From a virus (Duplodnaviria > Caudoviricetes): a DNA stretch of 64,000 nt. The notes beneath the pieces are model-generated. The model ran no database searches and had not been told where the DNA came from. It saw only the letters and a program-made list of their open reading frames with translations. Made by a program: the position numbers and the translations under genes. The first letter of the stretch is position 1; each line of letters opens with the position of its first letter. Shown here piece by piece: positions 6,171 through 60,348 of the stretch. Where the stretch lies: positions 160,001-224,000 of IMG/VR virus record IMGVR_UViG_3300017716_001697; one strand, written 5' to 3'.

Positions 6171-6554
6171 ATGCAATTTGAAGATTTAAACCTTAAAGAA
6201 CGTCAGGCGTATGTAAAACACCGTACGCAGGCTAATATGCACATGCTACAGAGCAAGAAGGCTAAGAGCTCGCGTAGCAAATTTCACCTTAACATGGCAC
6301 AATTTCACAAGAACGCAATGTGTGAATTGTTACAACTGTTTGAAGCTGATCAAATAATTGCAAAATTACAAAGCGTAGGTGATAAGCCGAAACCAGATCC
6401 TGATTCATGGTGGTCTGCCCCAGCCGGCTTCACTGTTTTAAAACAACAGGTAATAGCACACTCCCGGACGTTGCGTGCGCAGTGGTTTTTAGAACCGACA
6501 TTAGATATAGAAATAATAGGCACATATGGGACTATAGTATGGCCAAAGAAATAA
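6171..6554 (+). CDS. Hypothetical protein
   Basis: 127 aa ORF in tightly packed operon. Confidence 0.6.
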   Translation: MQFEDLNLKERQAYVKHRTQANMHMLQSKKAKSSRSKFHLNMAQFHKNAMCELLQLFEADQIIAKLQSVGDKPKPDPDSWWSAPAGFTVLKQQVIAHSRTLRAQWFLEPTLDIEIIGTYGTIVWPKK

Positions 6555-51744: not shown

Positions 51745-51820
51745 TCTGGCGTTAGTACAATGGATAGTACAGGGGATTTCTACTCCCTAGATAGGGGTTC
51801 GATTCCTCTACGCCGGACCA
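51745..51820 (+). tRNA. tRNA-Arg(UCU)
   Basis: 76 nt; acceptor TCTGGCG/CGCCGGA, anticodon arm GGGGA-TT-TCT-AC-TCCCT, GGTTCGATTCC, encoded CCA. Confidence 0.93.
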
Positions 51821-52566: not shown

Positions 52567-52746
52567 GATACGGTATGATTTGTCCGAAATGTGATACACT
52601 GATGGGTGCAATGGGGTATGGTGATGAACGGTGTCCTGCTTGTGGACACACATCATATTCTGAATCTGATGAAGAATTTAATCTTCGCATATACGGTACA
52701 ACATTCCGTGAAGGCGAAGATATTGACACTGAACAAAGAGAATAAT

Positions 52747-53940
52747 ATGGAAATCGAAAATGTAAAAATGTGGGTAGGTGATATGGAAGTAGAGCAAGCA
52801 GCTCTATCCCAAATCCTAAACATTTCCCAACTACCTATCCTTGCTGGACACATGGCTATCATGCCAGACGTACACATGGGTAAAGGTGCCACTGTGGGTT
52901 CTGTTATCCCTACACGTTCTGCAATTATTCCTGCGGCTGTGGGTGTGGATATCGGCTGTGGTATGATTGCAGCAATGACCAACCTTACTGCCGATGATCT
53001 TCCTGACTCATTGTTTTCGTTGCGTAATGCAATTGAAAAGGTAGTACCTGTAGGATTCAACGAACACGCAAAGGGCATCCCTTCTGTATCGGGACCTTAC
53101 GCAGATATCCTGCGCAAGAATTTGCACAAGACAATGGATCAATGGGATCACTTGGCAATGAAGCAGCACCTTGGTCGTGCTGACGAAAAGCGCATTGCTC
53201 GCCAAATCGGTACGCTAGGTGGTGGTAACCACTTTATCGAAATCTGTCTCGATACATCTAACCGTGTGTGGATTATGTTACACAGTGGTTCACGCGGTAT
53301 CGGCAATCAAATCGGCACTGTTGCAATCGAAATGGCTAAAGAACAGGCTGCTAAACGTGCATGGGGTCTCCCTGATGCTGATCTTGCATGGCTGGACGAA
53401 GGCACAACCGAATTCGATGCATACATTGAGGCAATGCATTGGGCACAGGACTATGCAAAATTCAACCGCGATACAATGCTGAATTTGGTTATTTCTGCAA
53501 TGAAGGTAAAGTTTCCTACAATGAAGATTGTTGGCGAAGTTGTAAACTGCCACCATAATTTTACAAGCGTGGAAGAGCACTTCAATGAAAAGATCTGGGT
53601 GACACGTAAGGGTGCAGTTTCTGCGCAGTATGGGCAAATGGGTATTATTCCCGGCTCAATGGGTGCAAAGTCATTCATTGTTCGCGGTAAAGGTAATCCT
53701 GATTCCTACTGCTCGTGTTCGCATGGTGCTGGTCGTAAGATGAGCCGCAACCAAGCTAAGAAGTTGTTCACATCACTTGATCTAGAACAACAAACAGCCG
53801 GTGTTGAGTGCCGTAAGGATGCAGACGTAGTTGATGAAATTCCGGGTGCATATAAGGATATTGATCAGGTAATGGCAGCGCAGGCTGATTTGGTTGATAT
53901 TGTACACACGTTGAAGCAAGTTCTTTGTATTAAGGGGTAA
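52747..53940 (+). CDS. rtcB: RtcB RNA 3'-phosphate/5'-OH ligase
   Basis: MPDVH, AVGVDIGCG, GTLGGGNHF, LHSGSRG, HHNF, PGSMG, SCSHGAGR, DEIPGAYK; likely start ATG 52747. Confidence 0.97.
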   Translation: MEIENVKMWVGDMEVEQAALSQILNISQLPILAGHMAIMPDVHMGKGATVGSVIPTRSAIIPAAVGVDIGCGMIAAMTNLTADDLPDSLFSLRNAIEKVVPVGFNEHAKGIPSVSGPYADILRKNLHKTMDQWDHLAMKQHLGRADEKRIARQIGTLGGGNHFIEICLDTSNRVWIMLHSGSRGIGNQIGTVAIEMAKEQAAKRAWGLPDADLAWLDEGTTEFDAYIEAMHWAQDYAKFNRDTMLNLVISAMKVKFPTMKIVGEVVNCHHNFTSVEEHFNEKIWVTRKGAVSAQYGQMGIIPGSMGAKSFIVRGKGNPDSYCSCSHGAGRKMSRNQAKKLFTSLDLEQQTAGVECRKDADVVDEIPGAYKDIDQVMAAQADLVDIVHTLKQVLCIKG

Positions 53941-53942
53941 TC

Positions 53943-54995
53943 ATGGGATCATGGAACGGAACATGTGCAGTATCTAACCTGCACGTACGAAGCGGGCAAG
54001 AGGTAGCAGTATTCATGCTGCTCGAAAACAAAAGATCAAAATCCTTCTGTTATGGTAATGCATTGTACGATGTATGCCCGTTACCATTCTATGGCAAGTA
54101 TAATGATTACGGTGCAGTAGAAGACTGCCAAGGCCCGGTGTTGCCCATTGTGGTTGACGAAATCAAGCGCCAGCTGTACGAATTTGGCCAAGGCCCGAAC
54201 AGTAGCCACGACATGGTAGTACGCAGGGCCGATTTTGACATTGATCTGTTATTTGAAGCCGACCACGAAGATCGTCTCGGTATTCAATATACACCCTTCT
54301 TCGACGAAGATGATTATGATCTTCGCGAATTGCGTAAAGACGGTGAAAAAGATCAACTTACACCAGATCAGCAATTCGAGCTTGACAGACTAGCCAACAA
54401 ACTCAAACAGGTAGATACATTTAGACGTGTTACACACGTAATTATTCATGGTGATATTTTCCGTGATATCATGAATAAATATTACATCGATGAATATGTT
54501 GGTGACAGCAAAGGTACAACAGGTTATGGAAATAACTATAACCGTGTATTCTTTAAGGATATTCTTGCATCTATTCCTGCATACATCGATGCCTGCAAGT
54601 CTGAAGCGGCAAGAATTAATGCTATGACTGACCCGCATGAACAATGGGCAGAACGAAACATTCCTAAGGATGAATGGAAGAATCCTAATCTTGCAGCAAG
54701 ATGGCTAAACAGCTTCAGTAATAGCAGCGAAGGATTCGGGCTTCTTCGTGTCGACGAATACATTCGCGAATATAAGAATGACGGCCGGTGGGACGAGCTG
54801 ACAGACTTTGTTACAGAAGCGTTAAAGGGTGCATGGGTAAATAGATATATGTCATCCATCCGTAAGCTGTGGTCGAAGCAGACAGGTGCCGGCTCTCAGA
54901 ATGATGAACATGATGGATACAATATCCTGATCCAATCAATGACAGACGTATTGGCGGCCGAGAAGAAGGCGTGGGATGACGAGAACGGGGAGTAG
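53943..54995 (+). CDS. Hypothetical protein
   Basis: 350 aa, directly coupled to rtcB. Confidence 0.75.
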   Translation: MGSWNGTCAVSNLHVRSGQEVAVFMLLENKRSKSFCYGNALYDVCPLPFYGKYNDYGAVEDCQGPVLPIVVDEIKRQLYEFGQGPNSSHDMVVRRADFDIDLLFEADHEDRLGIQYTPFFDEDDYDLRELRKDGEKDQLTPDQQFELDRLANKLKQVDTFRRVTHVIIHGDIFRDIMNKYYIDEYVGDSKGTTGYGNNYNRVFFKDILASIPAYIDACKSEAARINAMTDPHEQWAERNIPKDEWKNPNLAARWLNSFSNSSEGFGLLRVDEYIREYKNDGRWDELTDFVTEALKGAWVNRYMSSIRKLWSKQTGAGSQNDEHDGYNILIQSMTDVLAAEKKAWDDENGE

Positions 54996-57176: not shown

Positions 57177-57506
57177 ATGACACAACTGAACGCAAAATCC
57201 AATCCTATCGAGTACATGCATTTCCGACCGATCTTCCGTGATGTGTCCGGTGGCGCAACTGTTGCCATCATGCCACGTGCAAGTTTGGGCACTGCATTGA
57301 TCTCTGTTGCTCGCTGCGGCCCAATGGACAACTTCAACAAGAAGATTGGCCGCGATGTTGCTACTGGTCGTCTGAGTGCATACCTGGCAGGTCGCCAATC
57401 TGTTGCAGGCCACGTGCGCGAAATTGCTGTGCCAGACATGCTCAAACTCAAAGAGACTGTTGCGATGGCCCTTGAAAACGAAATGGCTGACAACGATCTG
57501 GCGTAA
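57177..57506 (+). CDS. Hypothetical protein
   Basis: 109 aa; ARC...DNFNKKIGR; AGGA RBS. Confidence 0.7.
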   Translation: MTQLNAKSNPIEYMHFRPIFRDVSGGATVAIMPRASLGTALISVARCGPMDNFNKKIGRDVATGRLSAYLAGRQSVAGHVREIAVPDMLKLKETVAMALENEMADNDLA

Positions 57507-57663: not shown

Positions 57664-58290
57664 ATGATATGCGAATACGGATGTAATGGGGAGGCCAATC
57701 ATCAATTACTAAACGGTAAATGGTGTTGCAGTAAACGGCCCGCTGGTTGCAAGGTGCTAAAGGCAGTTAACTCGGCAGGTCTGAAGAAAGCGCATAGTGA
57801 GGGTAGGGGCGGATATATTTACAAAGATCTATCTGACGAAACCAAAGCCCGAATGAATTGGGCTAAGGGTAAGACTATTACACCCGATAGCGAAATATTT
57901 ACAGAAAATAGCACATACTCTAACGAGATGGTTAAACATAGAATTGTTAAAGGTGATCTATTAGAATACAAATGCTCTAATCCGAAATGTGGAATAACCG
58001 AATGGTGCGACGAATCTATTGTGTTAGATTTGGATCATATAAATGGTAACAACACAGATAACAGATTATCTAATTTACGATACTTATGCCCAAATTGCCA
58101 TTCTCAGACAGACACATACAAGGGCAGAAATAAGAATACAGGTAAGTTGAAAGTAACCGACACTGAATTGTTGGCAGCATATAAGGAATGCAATAATATT
58201 AGGCAAGCATTAATCAGCGTAGGAATTGCTGCAAAGGGTGGCAATTATGAAAGATTAAAAAAATTAATTAGCAAAACGCTTGCCCTATAG
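57664..58290 (+). CDS. Free-standing HNH endonuclease (homing-type)
   Basis: YKCSNPKC, LDLDHINGNNTDNRLSNLRYLCPNCHS; GATAAATA at 57637 and AGGAG RBS. Confidence 0.9.
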   Translation: MICEYGCNGEANHQLLNGKWCCSKRPAGCKVLKAVNSAGLKKAHSEGRGGYIYKDLSDETKARMNWAKGKTITPDSEIFTENSTYSNEMVKHRIVKGDLLEYKCSNPKCGITEWCDESIVLDLDHINGNNTDNRLSNLRYLCPNCHSQTDTYKGRNKNTGKLKVTDTELLAAYKECNNIRQALISVGIAAKGGNYERLKKLISKTLAL

Positions 58291-58308
58291 CTAAATATGT
58301 TGTATAAT
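58280..58308 (+). promoter_or_regulatory. Promoter for tRNA/ncRNA cluster
   Basis: TTGCCC-N17-TATAAT, with a CTAAATA late-like motif in the spacer. Confidence 0.6.
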
Positions 58309-58358
58309 TAATGCATAGCAGCTGATTACAGTAGCTTGTAGAGATCATTAATAAATTA

Positions 58359-58648
58359 GCGGGTATGGAGAAATTGGTAAACTCACCAGACTTAGAGAAA
58401 TAAAATTTGAGTGCCCGGTCGGAAACGATCGGAGTAGAACCTGTCAAATTCGGCGAACACTTTAACATGTCAACGCCGAGCGAAGCCCGAAAGGGAACGT
58501 GTAGAGACTTGACGGCAGGTACCTAACGCAGAAATGCTACGGTAAAGACAAAGTCCAGACTATCAAACCGAGAGGGTAGCGAAAGCTATAGTAGTAAGAA
58601 AATCTGGCGCCGCAAGGCTTGACGGTTCAAGTCCGTCTACCCGCACCA
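58359..58648 (+). tRNA. tRNA-Leu(UAA), intron-split (exons 58359-58393 and 58599-58648)
   Basis: Acceptor GCGGGTA/TACCCGC; joined exons give CCAGA-CT-TAA-AA-TCTGG; long variable arm; GACGG-TTCAAGT-CCGTC; ACCA. Confidence 0.93.
58394..58598 (+). mobile_element. Group I intron (IC3-like), 205 nt, no ORF
   Basis: P1 ACUU|AGA:UUUGAGU with U-G at splice site; P2 GAAA hairpin; P3 ACCUGUC/GGCAGGU; P4 UUCGGCG/CGCCGAG; P7 G-A-GACUU/AAGUC-C; P8; P9; terminal G. Confidence 0.93.
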
Positions 58649-58743
58649 TATTAGGATACATTGTGCAGACGCGGTAGCTAGCCCAAAAGGGACTTTACTA
58701 GCGACAATGGTGAATGCAGGTACAACAGTGTATCCCAATATGG
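58646..58743 (+). ncRNA. Helix-closed RNA module H1
   Basis: CCATATTAGGATACATTGT / ACAGTGTATCCCAATATGG (18/19 paired). Confidence 0.6.
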
Positions 58744-58744
58744 T

Positions 58745-58927
58745 GCCATATTAAAACGCATAAATGCATTAGTTGCATTGGTAATCTGAATGACGTGGAT
58801 AGCTGCATCTTACCCACTGTCAAACAGAGGACATTGCAGGTGATAGCAAATGTAATGGTTTACAGCTAGGCGATTAGAGTCTGGTAGGTGGGTTCAACTC
58901 CTGCTAATGCGGTTTAACATGGCACCA
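58745..58927 (+). ncRNA. Helix-closed RNA module H2 with T-arm and ACCA end
   Basis: GCCATATTAAAACGCAT / ATGCGGTTTAACATGGC then ACCA; GTGGG-TTCAACT-CCTGC at 58888-58904. Confidence 0.6.
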
Positions 58928-59017
58928 TATCGAAGTACATTAACTGAGTACAAGGCTCAGCGTGCGAATTTTAGTAACTAAGCCTCAAGAGGAAGCTATA
59001 GTGTACTTCGATATGGT
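58924..59017 (+). ncRNA. Helix-closed RNA module H3
   Basis: ACCATATCGAAGTACATTA / TAGTGTACTTCGATATGGT; internal hairpins CTGAG/CTCAG, TTAG/CTAA, CCTC/GAGG. Confidence 0.65.
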
Positions 59018-59031
59018 ATAATGTAGACGTA

Positions 59032-59132
59032 TATTGTAACATACACGGAAGGTAATTGGTCCGTGAAACTCGACTGTGGTGTAATGGTAGCACTCAAAAG
59101 TTCCTGGTTCGAATCCAGGCCCGCAATAACCA
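59032..59132 (+). ncRNA. Anticodon-less tRNA-like element
   Basis: D-arm GTGT-AATGGTA-GCAC, T-arm CCTGG-TTCGAAT-CCAGG only 9 nt later, TATTGT/GCAATA helix then ACCA. Confidence 0.45.
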
Positions 59133-59138
59133 AAGGGG

Positions 59139-59182
59139 GTTCGGCACAACGAGTAGGAGAGATGGTTCGATTCCGTCCGAAT
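59139..59182 (+). pseudogene. tRNA remnant (T-arm plus short helix)
   Basis: GATGG-TTCGATT-CCGTC with GTTCG/CGAAT flanks; no D or anticodon arm. Confidence 0.35.
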
Positions 59183-59190
59183 AGAGTTTG

Positions 59191-59269
59191 CATATTAGAG
59201 GGCATTATGCTTCTATTTAAAAAGGGAGCCTGTGCTGGCACATTGGCACATCTAATGTCCTCTAATATG
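59191..59269 (+). ncRNA. Helix-closed RNA module H4
   Basis: CATATTAGAGGGCATTA / TAATGTCCTCTAATATG (17 bp incl. 1 G-U). Confidence 0.6.
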
Positions 59270-59423
59270 ATGCAGGTAGGCAAATGTGGTAAAGCCGCCG
59301 GTTCGGTCCGGTGAGAGATATGTTGAAGTCTTACATGATGACGGGTAGCTGGGTCGACACAGTCCGTACAGTGGCAGGAGCGATATATTTCGTTTATGGG
59401 TTCGATTCCCATCTTGTATCCCA
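59269..59423 (+). ncRNA. tRNA-like RNA with 83-nt variable-arm insertion
   Basis: Acceptor (G)ATGCAGG/CTTGTAT(C)+CCA, D-arm GGC/GCC, GCCGG-TTCGGT-CCGGT arm, T-arm ATGGG-TTCGATT-CCCAT. Confidence 0.7.
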
Positions 59424-59428
59424 GAATA

Positions 59429-59628
59429 GCCAGGGTAGCTCAGTCAGGCACGAAACTTAAAGGGAAGATGTTGCAACATTCAACGGAGAGAAGTAATGAC
59501 TTAGGAAGGTTAAGTAGTAAGCATCTTATGATACGCGGTGTAAGGTGTGTAGGTGATAGCCAACTATTAAGTAGAGCAACCAGTATCTAACTGGAAGGTC
59601 GTTGGTTCAATTCCATCCGCTGGCACCA
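59429..59628 (+). ncRNA. tRNA-like RNA with ~123-nt D-loop insertion
   Basis: GCCAGGG/CGCTGGC+ACCA, D-stem GCTC/GAGC 132 nt apart, CCAG-TATCTAA-CTGG, GTTGG-TTCAATT-CCATC. Confidence 0.72.
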
Positions 59629-59863: not shown

Positions 59864-60180
59864 CGAAGGGTAGAAGATGATATCAAAGGCTATTTCCTTT
59901 TTTGATAGACGAAACGCTGTGGCCACGGTGTTAGACTACTTATTGGTTAACCATTGTACCGCCAGATTCCGAAGCCTGTAATCAGGCCTGCCAAACAGTA
60001 AATTGGAGTGTGGGAGGACGCACTTAAAACCATCTCCCGCAGGGTCACCATGTGTTATGAGCGGTGATAGTTTAGCGAACCGGAGTCCTAAAAACCGGAA
60101 GGGTAAAGCAAACTTACCTACAAGTAGCGAAAGGTCTGCTATAGCAGTCAAGCCATCCTAGTCTGGAAAACTAGGGTGCA
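59864..60180 (+). ncRNA. Candidate ~320-nt multi-hairpin RNA
   Basis: No + strand ORF; hairpins TATCAA/TTGATA, GCCTG/CAGGC, TGTGGGAG/CTCCCGCA, TCACC/GGTGA, CCGG/CCGG, GGTAA/TTACC, CCTAGT/ACTAGG. Confidence 0.45.
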
Positions 60181-60348
60181 TTTATTTTAGAAAGATATCC
60201 ATATGTACACTTATGCATGGACCATATTTGGTTATTACGGTGGACCTACTATGACAACAAATTATCAACAACACTGTTCGTGGTACACTGTTGACGATTT
60301 TGGTGATCTCGTACCTGCCACATACAAAATGGATTATTTGGAGACAAC

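What the first reader, a model, noticed from the sequence alone, without database searches (positions are those of the whole stretch)
59429..59628. tRNA with a ~123-nt structured insertion in the D-loop
Removing 59449-59571 leaves a canonical D-loop (AGTCAGGTA) and a normal-length tRNA with ACCA, though with G6-G67 and A27-A43 mismatches and loop TATCTAA (nominal UCU, A at 33). The insert is closed by ACTTAA/TTAAGT and contains AAGATGTT/AGCATCTT, ACTTAG/TTAAGT, TACGC/GTGTA and GATAG/CTATT helices. It shows no group I/II core and no clear bulge-helix-bulge. It could be an unknown intron class (RtcB is encoded nearby) or a permanent appendage.
Basis: partly seen in the sequence, partly recalled or inferred. 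Interest (0 to 1): 0.75.

Follow-up and report, generated by a model that had tools for sequence, protein, structure and literature searches.

The report
Phage tRNA look-alike with D-loop domain
A 365-kb bacterial virus carries a gene for a tRNA-shaped RNA, derived from an arginine tRNA, with a 123-base extra piece inside one loop; several other phages keep this design, so it is a selected RNA, and the extra piece more likely stays in than is cut out.

Summary
Window 59429-59628 reads as a complete tRNA cloverleaf ending in ACCA, split in the D-loop by 123 nt. ARAGORN and Rfam miss it intact. With the insert removed in silico, ARAGORN calls tRNA-Arg(UCU).

It is not chance or a dead gene. The same tRNA body with a D-loop insert occurs in a related jumbo phage (113 nt), in five contigs of an unrelated metagenomic phage clade (66-nt hairpin), and as a more derived form in two further jumbo-phage lineages (62-64 nt). 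All four stems are kept through compensatory changes.

The inserts share no sequence between lineages and sit at slightly different D-loop positions. I found no group I, group II or small-ribozyme signature, no bulge-helix-bulge motif, and no splicing-endonuclease gene. RtcB linkage is not conserved.

Every phage checked also has an ordinary tRNA-Arg(UCU). The insert-bearing copies show A33, stem mismatches and, across the wider family, different anticodons.

My reading is a non-decoding tRNA look-alike with a permanent, lineage-specific D-loop domain (about 0.5). Protein-dependent splicing is about 0.2. No RNA data could be laid.

The scan's earlier notes describe similar D-loop-insert tRNA mimics in other jumbo phages.

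The parts
59429..59448 (+). 5' part of the tRNA-like RNA. It holds the acceptor 5' strand GCCAGGG, U8 A9, the D-stem 5' strand GCTC, and the D-loop start AGTCAGG with G18 G19 at 59447-59448.
   Evidence: Read directly. It pairs with 59574-59577 and 59618-59624. The same layout occurs in orthologues, with compensatory changes at 10:25 and 5:68.
59449..59571 (+). 123-nt insert in the D-loop, between G19 and U20. A 6-bp closing helix can be drawn (ACTTAA 59455-59460 with TTAAGT 59567-59572), plus several internal hairpins.
   Evidence: - Boundaries follow from the tRNA parts on either side. A G at both junctions lets the boundary slide by one base.
- The sequence is unique in the 364.6-kb genome and is not alignable with the inserts of orthologues.
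- Predicted folding is no better than shuffles.
- No Rfam family matches.
- Logan contigs from wastewater metagenomes align across 59243-59547 (about 89% identity) and 58922-59508 (about 87%), so relatives carry at least the 5' part of the insert.
59572..59600 (+). End of the D-loop (TA), D-stem 3' strand GAGC, A26, anticodon arm ACCAG-TATCTAA-CTGGA (anticodon TCT at 59586-59588, A at position 33), and variable loop AGGTC.
   Evidence: The anticodon stem is kept through changes on both sides in orthologues.
59601..59628 (+). T-arm GTTGG-TTCAATT-CCATC (U50-U64 mismatch), acceptor 3' strand CGCTGGC, discriminator A and CCA.
   Evidence: Pair 50:64 is non-Watson-Crick in four of the six aligned family members. 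The nucleotides of the tertiary elbow (G18, G19, T54, T55, C56, A58, G15 with C48) are all present, read directly.
58280..58308 (+). Promoter-like site (TTGCCC, 17 nt, TATAAT). It may head the RNA-gene array that contains the element. This is inferred.
   Evidence: Consensus scan only. A second, weaker site lies at 59243-59271.
60154..60188 (+). Terminator-like hairpin plus T-run. It may end the same transcription unit. This is inferred.
   Evidence: Consensus scan. The sequence is conserved in the related phage at L085 10208-10253.

Best explanation
59429-59628 is the gene of a roughly 200-nt tRNA-shaped stable RNA. It descends from a bacterial-type tRNA-Arg(UCU). A lineage-specific extra domain is built into the variable part of its D-loop and probably stays in the mature RNA.

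Shown:
- The cloverleaf and the elbow nucleotides are under selection.
- Every family member found carries a D-loop insert.
- The inserts are unrelated between lineages.
- No known self-splicing or self-cleaving motif is present.

Inferred:
- The RNA is cut out of the array by the ordinary tRNA-end enzymes. It lies 5-6 nt from its tRNA-like neighbours and encodes its own CCA. Family members in other phages have a -10 box 6 nt upstream.
- It folds into an L-shape, with the insert projecting from D-loop positions 16-17 or 20, which are solvent-exposed in normal tRNAs.
- It does not decode. It would act as a tRNA look-alike, either as bait or competitor for a host enzyme that binds or cuts tRNA, or as a tRNA scaffold that stabilises and presents the inserted domain.

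Which partner it meets is unknown.
For: 1. Family.
- The same body with a D-loop insert occurs in related phage G004 (L085 10256-10444, 113-nt insert).
- It also occurs in five distinct metagenomic phage contigs: L101, L108, L109, L110 and L205, with a 66-nt insert.
- Removing the inserts in silico gave ARAGORN tRNA-Arg(tct) calls for the three tested: the window, G004 and L101.

2. Selection on the tRNA fold.
- Compensatory changes occur at acceptor 5:68, D-stem 10:25, three of the five anticodon-stem pairs and T-stem 51:63.
- 90% of cells pair, against 27-52% for slid partners, and 0 of 500 shuffles reach the covariation score.

3. No insert-less member.
- A model of the 3' part was searched over 26 related phage records. 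Every match shown other than the insert-bearing copies was a normal tRNA with its 5' half directly adjoining.
- One metagenomic relative (L115) lacks the whole gene, not just the insert.

4. Not a needed decoder.
- Each phage also has a normal tRNA-Arg(UCU) (window 51746-51820, L085 5339, L101 5855) that is only 48-57% identical to the insert-bearing copy.
- The insert-bearing copies have A33 (window, L101, L108, L109, L205), recurrent non-Watson-Crick pairs at 50:64 and 27:43, and acceptor mismatches.

5. A more derived set (family B) in two further jumbo-phage lineages.
- Copies lie at G005 97428-97565 and G001 146256-146393, in six IMG/VR contigs.
- They keep a 62-64-nt D-loop insert at 83% identity, while the anticodon arm is only 8/17 identical and the anticodon differs (GAU against UGU).

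6. In the metagenomic clade the insert is one long hairpin with an invariant apical part and one compensatory pair.

7. No splicing signature.
- No Rfam intron or ribozyme.
- No conserved bulge-helix-bulge.
- No tRNA_int_endo domain in the genome, with archaeal controls positive.

8. Earlier notes of this scan describe D-loop arms and inserts in other phage tRNA mimics. These are leads only and were not tested here.
Against: - No RNA evidence of any kind, so the mature size is unknown.
- After removal of the insert the D-loop is canonical in all lineages. Splicing would also predict this.
- Among close relatives in the metagenomic clade the exons are nearly invariant (70/71) while the insert changes more (60/66), as expected of a less constrained intron.
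- Between this phage and G004 the insert is not alignable at all.
- The predicted fold of the insert is no better than shuffles.
- RtcB, the ligase of protein-dependent tRNA splicing, is encoded 5.5 kb away.
- The function of the RNA is entirely inferred.
Confidence: 0.5

Rival explanations
1. The insert is an intron of an undescribed, protein-dependent kind. An unknown endonuclease, from the phage or the host, cuts at both D-loop junctions. The phage RtcB joins the 2',3'-cyclic phosphate and 5'-OH ends, giving a 77-nt tRNA-Arg(UCU)-like product.
For: - Removing the insert restores a normal-length tRNA with a canonical D-loop here and in the two other lineages tested.
- The inserts vary freely in sequence and length between lineages, as introns recognised through the mature domain do.
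- Exons are more conserved than the insert among close relatives of the metagenomic clade.
- rtcB is at 52606-53940.
- 'Enigmatic' non-ribozyme tRNA introns have been reported in Lak megaphages (bioRxiv 10.1101/356790).
Against: - No bulge-helix-bulge at the junctions.
- No splicing-endonuclease domain in the 364.6-kb genome.
- The position of the insert differs between lineages: after G19, after A20, or before G18.
- RtcB proximity is not conserved. The established role of phage RtcB is repair of cleaved tRNAs (PMC7824862).
- The product would be redundant and irregular, with A33 and three mismatches.
- In family B the insert is better conserved than the anticodon arm.
Confidence: 0.2
2. It is a decaying tRNA gene. 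A tRNA-Arg(UCU) copy made redundant by the second tRNA-Arg(UCU) picked up junk DNA in its D-loop and is drifting. The RNA has no function.
For: - A33, G6-G67, A27-A43 and U50-U64 in this copy.
- The fold of the insert is no better than random.
- The L110 variant has a broken acceptor stem, and L109 and the G001 copy have lost CCA.
- L115 lacks the gene.
Against: - The design persists in at least four phage lineages, with compensatory changes keeping all stems.
- Insert length is retained (123 against 113 nt) despite complete sequence turnover, in genomes expected to lose useless DNA.
- The nucleotides of the tertiary elbow are intact.
- A -10-type box lies 6 nt upstream of the gene in two other lineages.
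Confidence: 0.13
3. The insert is cut out without religation, like the intervening sequences of bacterial 23S rRNA. This would leave a two-piece tRNA held together by the acceptor and D stems.
For: - The neighbouring RNA modules have long closing stems of the kind RNase III cuts.
- The insert has a closing helix next to the D-loop.
Against: - The closing helix is only 6 bp, too short for a typical RNase III site. This rests on general knowledge of RNase III substrates.
- It is not conserved in G004.
- A 20-nt 5' piece would be held by only 11 base pairs.
Confidence: 0.05

Closest known systems
Canonical bacterial or phage tRNA-Arg(UCU) (Rfam RF00005)
   Same: - Full cloverleaf, elbow nucleotides, variable loop AGGTC, anticodon TCT with A37 A38, discriminator A and CCA.
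- 58-77% identical to ordinary tRNA-Arg(UCU) genes of other phages once the insert is removed.
   Different: - A 123-nt insert in the D-loop.
- A33 instead of the near-universal U33.
- Three stem mismatches.
- The canonical A20 next to G19, the main ArgRS identity element in E. coli by my own knowledge, is not at its place.
- Not detected by ARAGORN or Rfam when intact.
Non-canonical archaeal tRNA introns in the D-arm, cut at a bulge-helix-bulge and joined by RtcB (for example Aeropyrum pernix, PMC3241643)
   Same: An insert inside the D-arm region of a tRNA gene. An RtcB ligase is encoded by the same genome.
   Different: - No bulge-helix-bulge.
- No splicing endonuclease.
- The gene context is bacterial-type: sigma-70-like promoters, a tRNA-Leu group I intron and a cell-wall hydrolase.
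- The insert is far longer than most archaeal tRNA introns, by my own knowledge.
'Enigmatic' tRNA introns of Lak megaphages (Devoto et al., bioRxiv 10.1101/356790; PMC6784885)
   Same: Huge-phage tRNA genes that are too long, with inserts that match no Rfam intron family and have no shown removal mechanism.
   Different: Those were placed with the eukaryote mode of tRNAscan, which looks for anticodon-loop introns. No D-loop position is described in the passages read. No sequence relation was tested.
Phage T4 small stable RNAs, species 1 and 2 (rnaC, rnaD), and bacterial YrlA Y RNAs that mimic tRNA (PMC4201824)
   Same: Stable, non-decoding RNAs with tRNA-like parts, encoded among tRNA genes or beside RNA-repair genes, with function unknown or regulatory.
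   Different: - The YrlA model gives no match at this locus and the phage has no Ro60/TROVE gene.
- In YrlA the tRNA-like part lacks an anticodon arm, while here all four arms are kept.
- The T4 RNAs could not be compared because no sequence was held. The resemblance is from memory only.

Membership tests
tRNA (RF00005) | Four-stem cloverleaf with conserved tertiary nucleotides | tested here: met
   Stems are read directly and supported by compensatory changes in orthologues. U8, A14, G15, G18, G19, A21, T54, T55, C56, A58 and C48 are present.
tRNA (RF00005) | Contiguous 70-95 nt gene recognised by tRNA finders | tested here: not met
   The element is 200 nt. ARAGORN and Rfam do not call it, and the best score is 14.5 bits against a 29-bit cut-off. 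It is called only after in-silico removal of 59449-59571.
tRNA (RF00005) | Canonical 7-nt anticodon loop with U33 and purine 37 | tested here: not met
   The loop is TATCTAA, with A at 33 and A at 37. A33 is shared by L101, L108, L109 and L205. G004 and L110 have U33.
Group I intron (RF00028) | Conserved catalytic core (P3-P9) detectable by the covariance model; usually over 200 nt | tested here: not met
   No match at E up to 10 on a 251-nt search. The same model finds the real intron at 58339-58574. The insert is 123 nt and unrelated between orthologues.
Group II intron and small self-cleaving ribozymes (hammerhead, twister, HDV, pistol, hatchet, hairpin) | Match to the Rfam models | tested here: not met
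   No such match in the window element, in G004 or in the metagenomic relatives.
Archaeal-type tRNA intron | Bulge-helix-bulge motif spanning both splice junctions | tested here: not met
   A script scan for 3-nt bulge, 4-bp helix, 3-nt bulge found none at the junctions in the window copy and none in L101. It found one weak 2-bp-flanked candidate in G004 that is not conserved.
Archaeal-type tRNA intron | A tRNA splicing endonuclease (Pfam PF01974) available | tested here: not met
   No match in the complete phage genome, while archaeal controls are positive. The host is unknown, so a host enzyme cannot be checked.
Archaeal-type tRNA intron | RtcB-type ligase available | tested here: met
   RtcB is at 52606-53940, Pfam E = 1e-127.
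YrlA / bacterial Y RNA | Match to RF02553 and a Ro60/TROVE partner gene | tested here: not met
   No RF02553 match at the locus. No TROVE domain in the genome.
Any intron | Spliced RNA product or an insert-less allele | not testable with these tools
   No RNA run holds the window's stretch. No insert-less orthologue turned up in the collections searched.

The most novel reading that the evidence does not exclude
The D-loop inserts of this family are true introns removed by a protein endonuclease not yet known in bacteria or phages, with the exons joined by phage RtcB. That would be a bacterial-virus counterpart of archaeal and eukaryotic tRNA splicing, acting at a non-anticodon position.
Probability: 0.15. 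Interest if true: 0.9.

Novelty: new variant of a known kind. Interest (0 to 1): 0.62.

Why it matters
Phage tRNA genes are usually read as codon-usage helpers or as replacements for tRNAs cut by host defence nucleases. This family does not fit either reading. It is kept in at least four phage lineages and is always broken in the D-loop by a lineage-specific domain. It often has an abnormal anticodon loop, and it sits beside a normal tRNA of the same anticodon.

If the domain stays in, phages build non-decoding tRNA look-alikes by enlarging solvent-exposed loops. That points to an unexplored class of RNA tools, such as baits for tRNA-targeting enzymes or tRNA-scaffolded RNA domains. It also means standard tRNA finders under-count such genes.

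If the domain is cut out, bacteria or their viruses have a protein-dependent tRNA splicing pathway that has not been described.

Both outcomes can be tested with one small-RNA sequencing experiment.

Tried and rejected
- **Similarity searches for the insert.** blastn of the element and of the insert against 81 RtcB-anchored loci, the phage's own genome and four whole related genomes found nothing beyond the element itself. The INPHARED phage collection in distant mode matched only the tRNA-Leu and group I intron part of the block.
- **Exact or degenerate pattern scans.**
  - IMG/VR scans gave no hits, only normal tRNA-Arg genes plus G004, or only G004.
  - A GTDB genome scan gave nothing.
  - The one metagenome scan hit the L101 clade only because an unrelated CTCAGT lay upstream by luck. 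Other insert lengths were therefore not sampled.
- **Neighbour-protein anchor.** The 57177-57506 protein gave one poor locus.
- **Spurious-ORF trick.** Searching the 138-aa ORF over 58996-59412 to fish out relatives' contigs returned only the ORF itself.
- **Expression.** No RNA holder is listed for the window's stretch. Four wastewater metatranscriptome runs hold 22-39% of the sampled words of L101:7640-7900. I had already spent the single read-laying run on DNA contigs, so which part they hold, and whether it is spliced, is unknown.
- **Read-laying output.** The tables were truncated, so base-level differences of the wastewater relatives inside 59243-59547 could not be read.
- **Metagenome records.** The genome search could not reach the records behind L099-L110, so RtcB linkage in that clade is untested.
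- **The 350-aa gene next to rtcB (53943-54995).** Only a PHROG of unknown function matched, and the atlas look-up gave nothing usable. I rejected it as evidence for a splicing nuclease.
- **Y-RNA idea.** Rejected.
- **Generic D-loop-insert scan.** It has a background of 9-17 hits per genome in reversed or complemented controls. I accepted only hits with canonical tRNA features.

Full report
**Setting.** The window is bases 160001-224000 of a complete 364,576-bp phage genome with direct terminal repeats (IMG/VR). About 45 tRNA genes lie mostly at 3.8-56 kb of the genome.

The finding lies in a gene-poor block at window 58.3-61.5 kb. From the upstream end the block holds:
- a tRNA-Leu(UAA) split by a group I intron (Rfam 53 bits, 58339-58574);
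- several hairpin RNAs that share CCATAT/ATATGG closing stems;
- at least three aberrant tRNA-like genes in tandem, with 5-6-nt spacers.

A sigma-70-like promoter site lies at 58280-58308 and a terminator-like site at 60154-60188. These could bound one transcription unit, but the evidence is a consensus scan only. rtcB is at 52606-53940.

**The observation.**
- Acceptor GCCAGGG/CGCTGGC, with G6-G67 unpaired.
- D-stem GCTC/GAGC.
- D-loop AGTCAGG, then 123 nt, then TA.
- Anticodon arm ACCAG-TATCTAA-CTGGA, with A27-A43 unpaired, A33 and anticodon TCT.
- Variable loop AGGTC.
- T-arm GTTGG-TTCAATT-CCATC.
- ACCA at the 3' end.

The intact element is invisible to ARAGORN and to the Rfam tRNA model. 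With 59449-59571 removed in silico, ARAGORN calls a 77-nt tRNA-Arg(tct).

The insert, and the element as a whole, fold no better than dinucleotide shuffles (z about -0.5).

**Relatives.** The nearest phage in IMG/VR is G004, whose RtcB is 86% identical. It has the same block of RNA modules.
- Its tRNA-Leu has no intron.
- At L085 10256-10444 it has an orthologue of the finding: GCCTCAG TA CCTC AGTGGA, then 113 nt, then TA GAGG, an anticodon loop TTTCTAA, a T-arm and ACCA.

A metagenome pattern scan turned up a second, unrelated phage clade. I extended it through a neighbouring gene's homologues to five distinct contigs: L101 (with identical copies L099 and L105), L205, L108, L109 and L110.
- Its acceptor stem is almost the same as here (GCCAGCG/CGCTGGY).
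- L101, L205, L108 and L109 share the TATCTAA loop. L110 has TTTCTAA.
- It has a 66-nt insert placed before G18 G19 rather than after them.
- One relative (L115) lacks the whole gene.

I then fetched four related jumbo-phage genomes whole and scanned them for D-loop-split cloverleaves. This gave a more derived set, family B, at G005 97428-97565 and G001 146256-146393. It occurs in six IMG/VR contigs as two alleles.
- The 5' part resembles the family above (GCCTCAT TA GCTC against GCCTCAG TA CCTC). The anticodon stem of the G001 copy also does (GCCAG/CTGGT against ACCAG/CTGGA).
- It has a 62-64-nt D-loop insert and an enlarged T-loop.
- The anticodons differ: GAU in one allele and UGU in the other.

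A covariance model of the 3' part was searched over 26 related records. Apart from the G004 orthologue and a family B copy, every match I examined was an ordinary tRNA with its 5' half directly adjoining.

**What the comparison shows.**
1. The tRNA fold is selected.
   - Acceptor 5:68, D-stem 10:25, three of the five anticodon-stem pairs and T-stem 51:63 change on both sides and stay paired.
   - On the six-sequence 3'-part alignment, 90% of cells pair against 27-52% for slid partners, and no shuffle out of 500 reaches the covariation score.
2. The insert-bearing genes are not copies of each phage's own normal tRNA-Arg(UCU), to which they are 48-57% identical. They resemble each other (57-76% between lineages) and bacterial-type tRNA-Arg(UCU).
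3. Every member found has a D-loop insert. The inserts of different lineages share no detectable sequence, differ in length (123, 113, 66 and 62-64 nt), and sit after G19, after A20 or before G18.
4. Within lineages the picture is mixed.
   - In the metagenomic clade the exons are nearly invariant (70/71) while the insert changes more (60/66). That insert is still one long hairpin with an invariant apex and one compensatory pair.
   - In family B the insert is 83% identical while the anticodon arm is 8/17 identical.
5. Irregularities recur: A33 in two separate clades, non-Watson-Crick 50:64 and 27:43, acceptor mismatches, and loss of CCA in two copies.

**Tests for known removal mechanisms.**
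- No group I, group II or small-ribozyme model matches the element or its relatives, even at E up to 10 on short stretches.
- A script search for a bulge-helix-bulge across the junctions found none here and none in L101. It found one weak, unconserved candidate in G004.
- The genome has no tRNA-intron endonuclease domain, while the same search rings in archaeal controls.
- RtcB is present, but its distance to the element is 5.5 kb here and about 18 kb in G004. Family B copies are nowhere near it.
- The published view of RtcB in jumbo phages is repair of tRNAs cut by host nucleases (PMC7824862).
- The Y-RNA alternative fails. There is no TROVE gene and no YrlA match at the locus.

**Reading.** The gene encodes a selected, tRNA-shaped RNA that is very unlikely to be an ordinary decoder. 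I think the D-loop domain most likely stays in the mature RNA (confidence about 0.5), for these reasons:
- No known means of removal is present.
- The product of removal would be redundant and irregular.
- The anticodon is not conserved across the wider family, while the insert is always present.
- The insertion points are the two D-loop stretches that vary in length and face outward in normal tRNAs. This last point rests on established tRNA structure and was not tested here.

The neighbouring tRNA-like genes carry large inserts at other outward-facing sites, the variable arm and the anticodon loop. That fits a general habit of this phage of hanging extra RNA on tRNA frames.

What the RNA does is inferred only. 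It could be a bait or competitor for a tRNA-binding or tRNA-cutting host factor, or a tRNA frame that stabilises and presents the inserted domain.

Rival readings:
- Protein-dependent splicing remains possible (about 0.2). Removal restores a perfect D-loop, and exons are better kept than the insert in one clade.
- A drifting pseudogene (about 0.13) fits the mismatches but not the compensatory changes or the persistence across lineages.
- Cutting without rejoining is a minor option (about 0.05).

**Known work.** Lak megaphages were reported to have tRNA genes with 'enigmatic' introns of no known class (10.1101/356790). I found no paper describing D-loop inserts in phage or bacterial tRNAs.

Earlier notes of this scan describe D-loop arms or inserts in tRNA mimics of other jumbo phages, and A33 together with a large insert in gut-phage tRNA look-alikes. 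This finding therefore looks like one more member of a recurring, apparently unpublished phenomenon. I did not test those notes.

**Limits.**
- No RNA data were laid.
- Only three to four independent lineages are available.
- The metagenome scan sampled one range of insert length.
- The host is unknown.

Noticed in passing
G005:C1:97428-97565 (-) (also L145 1427-1562); G001:C1:146256-146393 (-): A second, more derived set of tRNA-like genes in related jumbo phages. It has a 62-64-nt D-loop insert, a 13-nt T-loop and different anticodons (GAU against UGU). A TATACT box lies 6 nt upstream, and no tRNA gene lies within 6 kb.
   Followed up: partly
L101 3800-7900 (also L099, L105): A metagenomic phage with a dense array of unusual tRNAs. 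There are several tRNA-Thr genes of 74-86 nt, some with long variable arms. Most genes end in TCCA, and many have their own TGnTATAAT-type promoter. A mini tRNA-like with a 10-bp acceptor helix lies at about 6449-6530.
   Followed up: no
window 58359-58648 against L085 8790-8876: The tRNA-Leu(UAA) of the nearest relative has no group I intron, so the intron is polymorphic between these two phages. Wastewater relatives join 58604 to 58922 with 38 other letters, so they lack the two hairpin modules between.
   Followed up: partly
G000:C1:30528-30625 (outside the window): A consensus TTGACA...TATAAT promoter is followed by an RNA that ends in a perfect T-arm, acceptor 3' strand and ACCA. It has no recognisable 5' half within normal distance. 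A possible partner strand lies 200 nt upstream.
   Followed up: no
G000:C1:10343-10480 (outside the window): Another over-long tRNA-like stretch in the main tRNA region, ending in a T-arm (CGGGTTCAACTCCCG) and CCACCA. ARAGORN does not call it as a normal tRNA.
   Followed up: no
window 53943-54995: A 350-aa gene starts 3 nt after rtcB. It is conserved next to or near rtcB in several related phages at 65-69% nucleotide identity. It matches only a PHROG of unknown function.
   Followed up: partly
window 60154-60188 and L085 10208-10253: A terminator-like hairpin is conserved between the two phages. In G004 the D-loop-insert gene starts about 12 nt after its T-run, so the gene order around the element has been rearranged.
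   Followed up: no
L085 14447-14497: A weak type III hammerhead match (26 bits, below the 48.5-bit cut-off) in the related phage, downstream of its RNA block.
   Followed up: no
L101:7640-7900: Four wastewater metatranscriptome runs hold 22-39% of the sampled words of this stretch.
   Followed up: no
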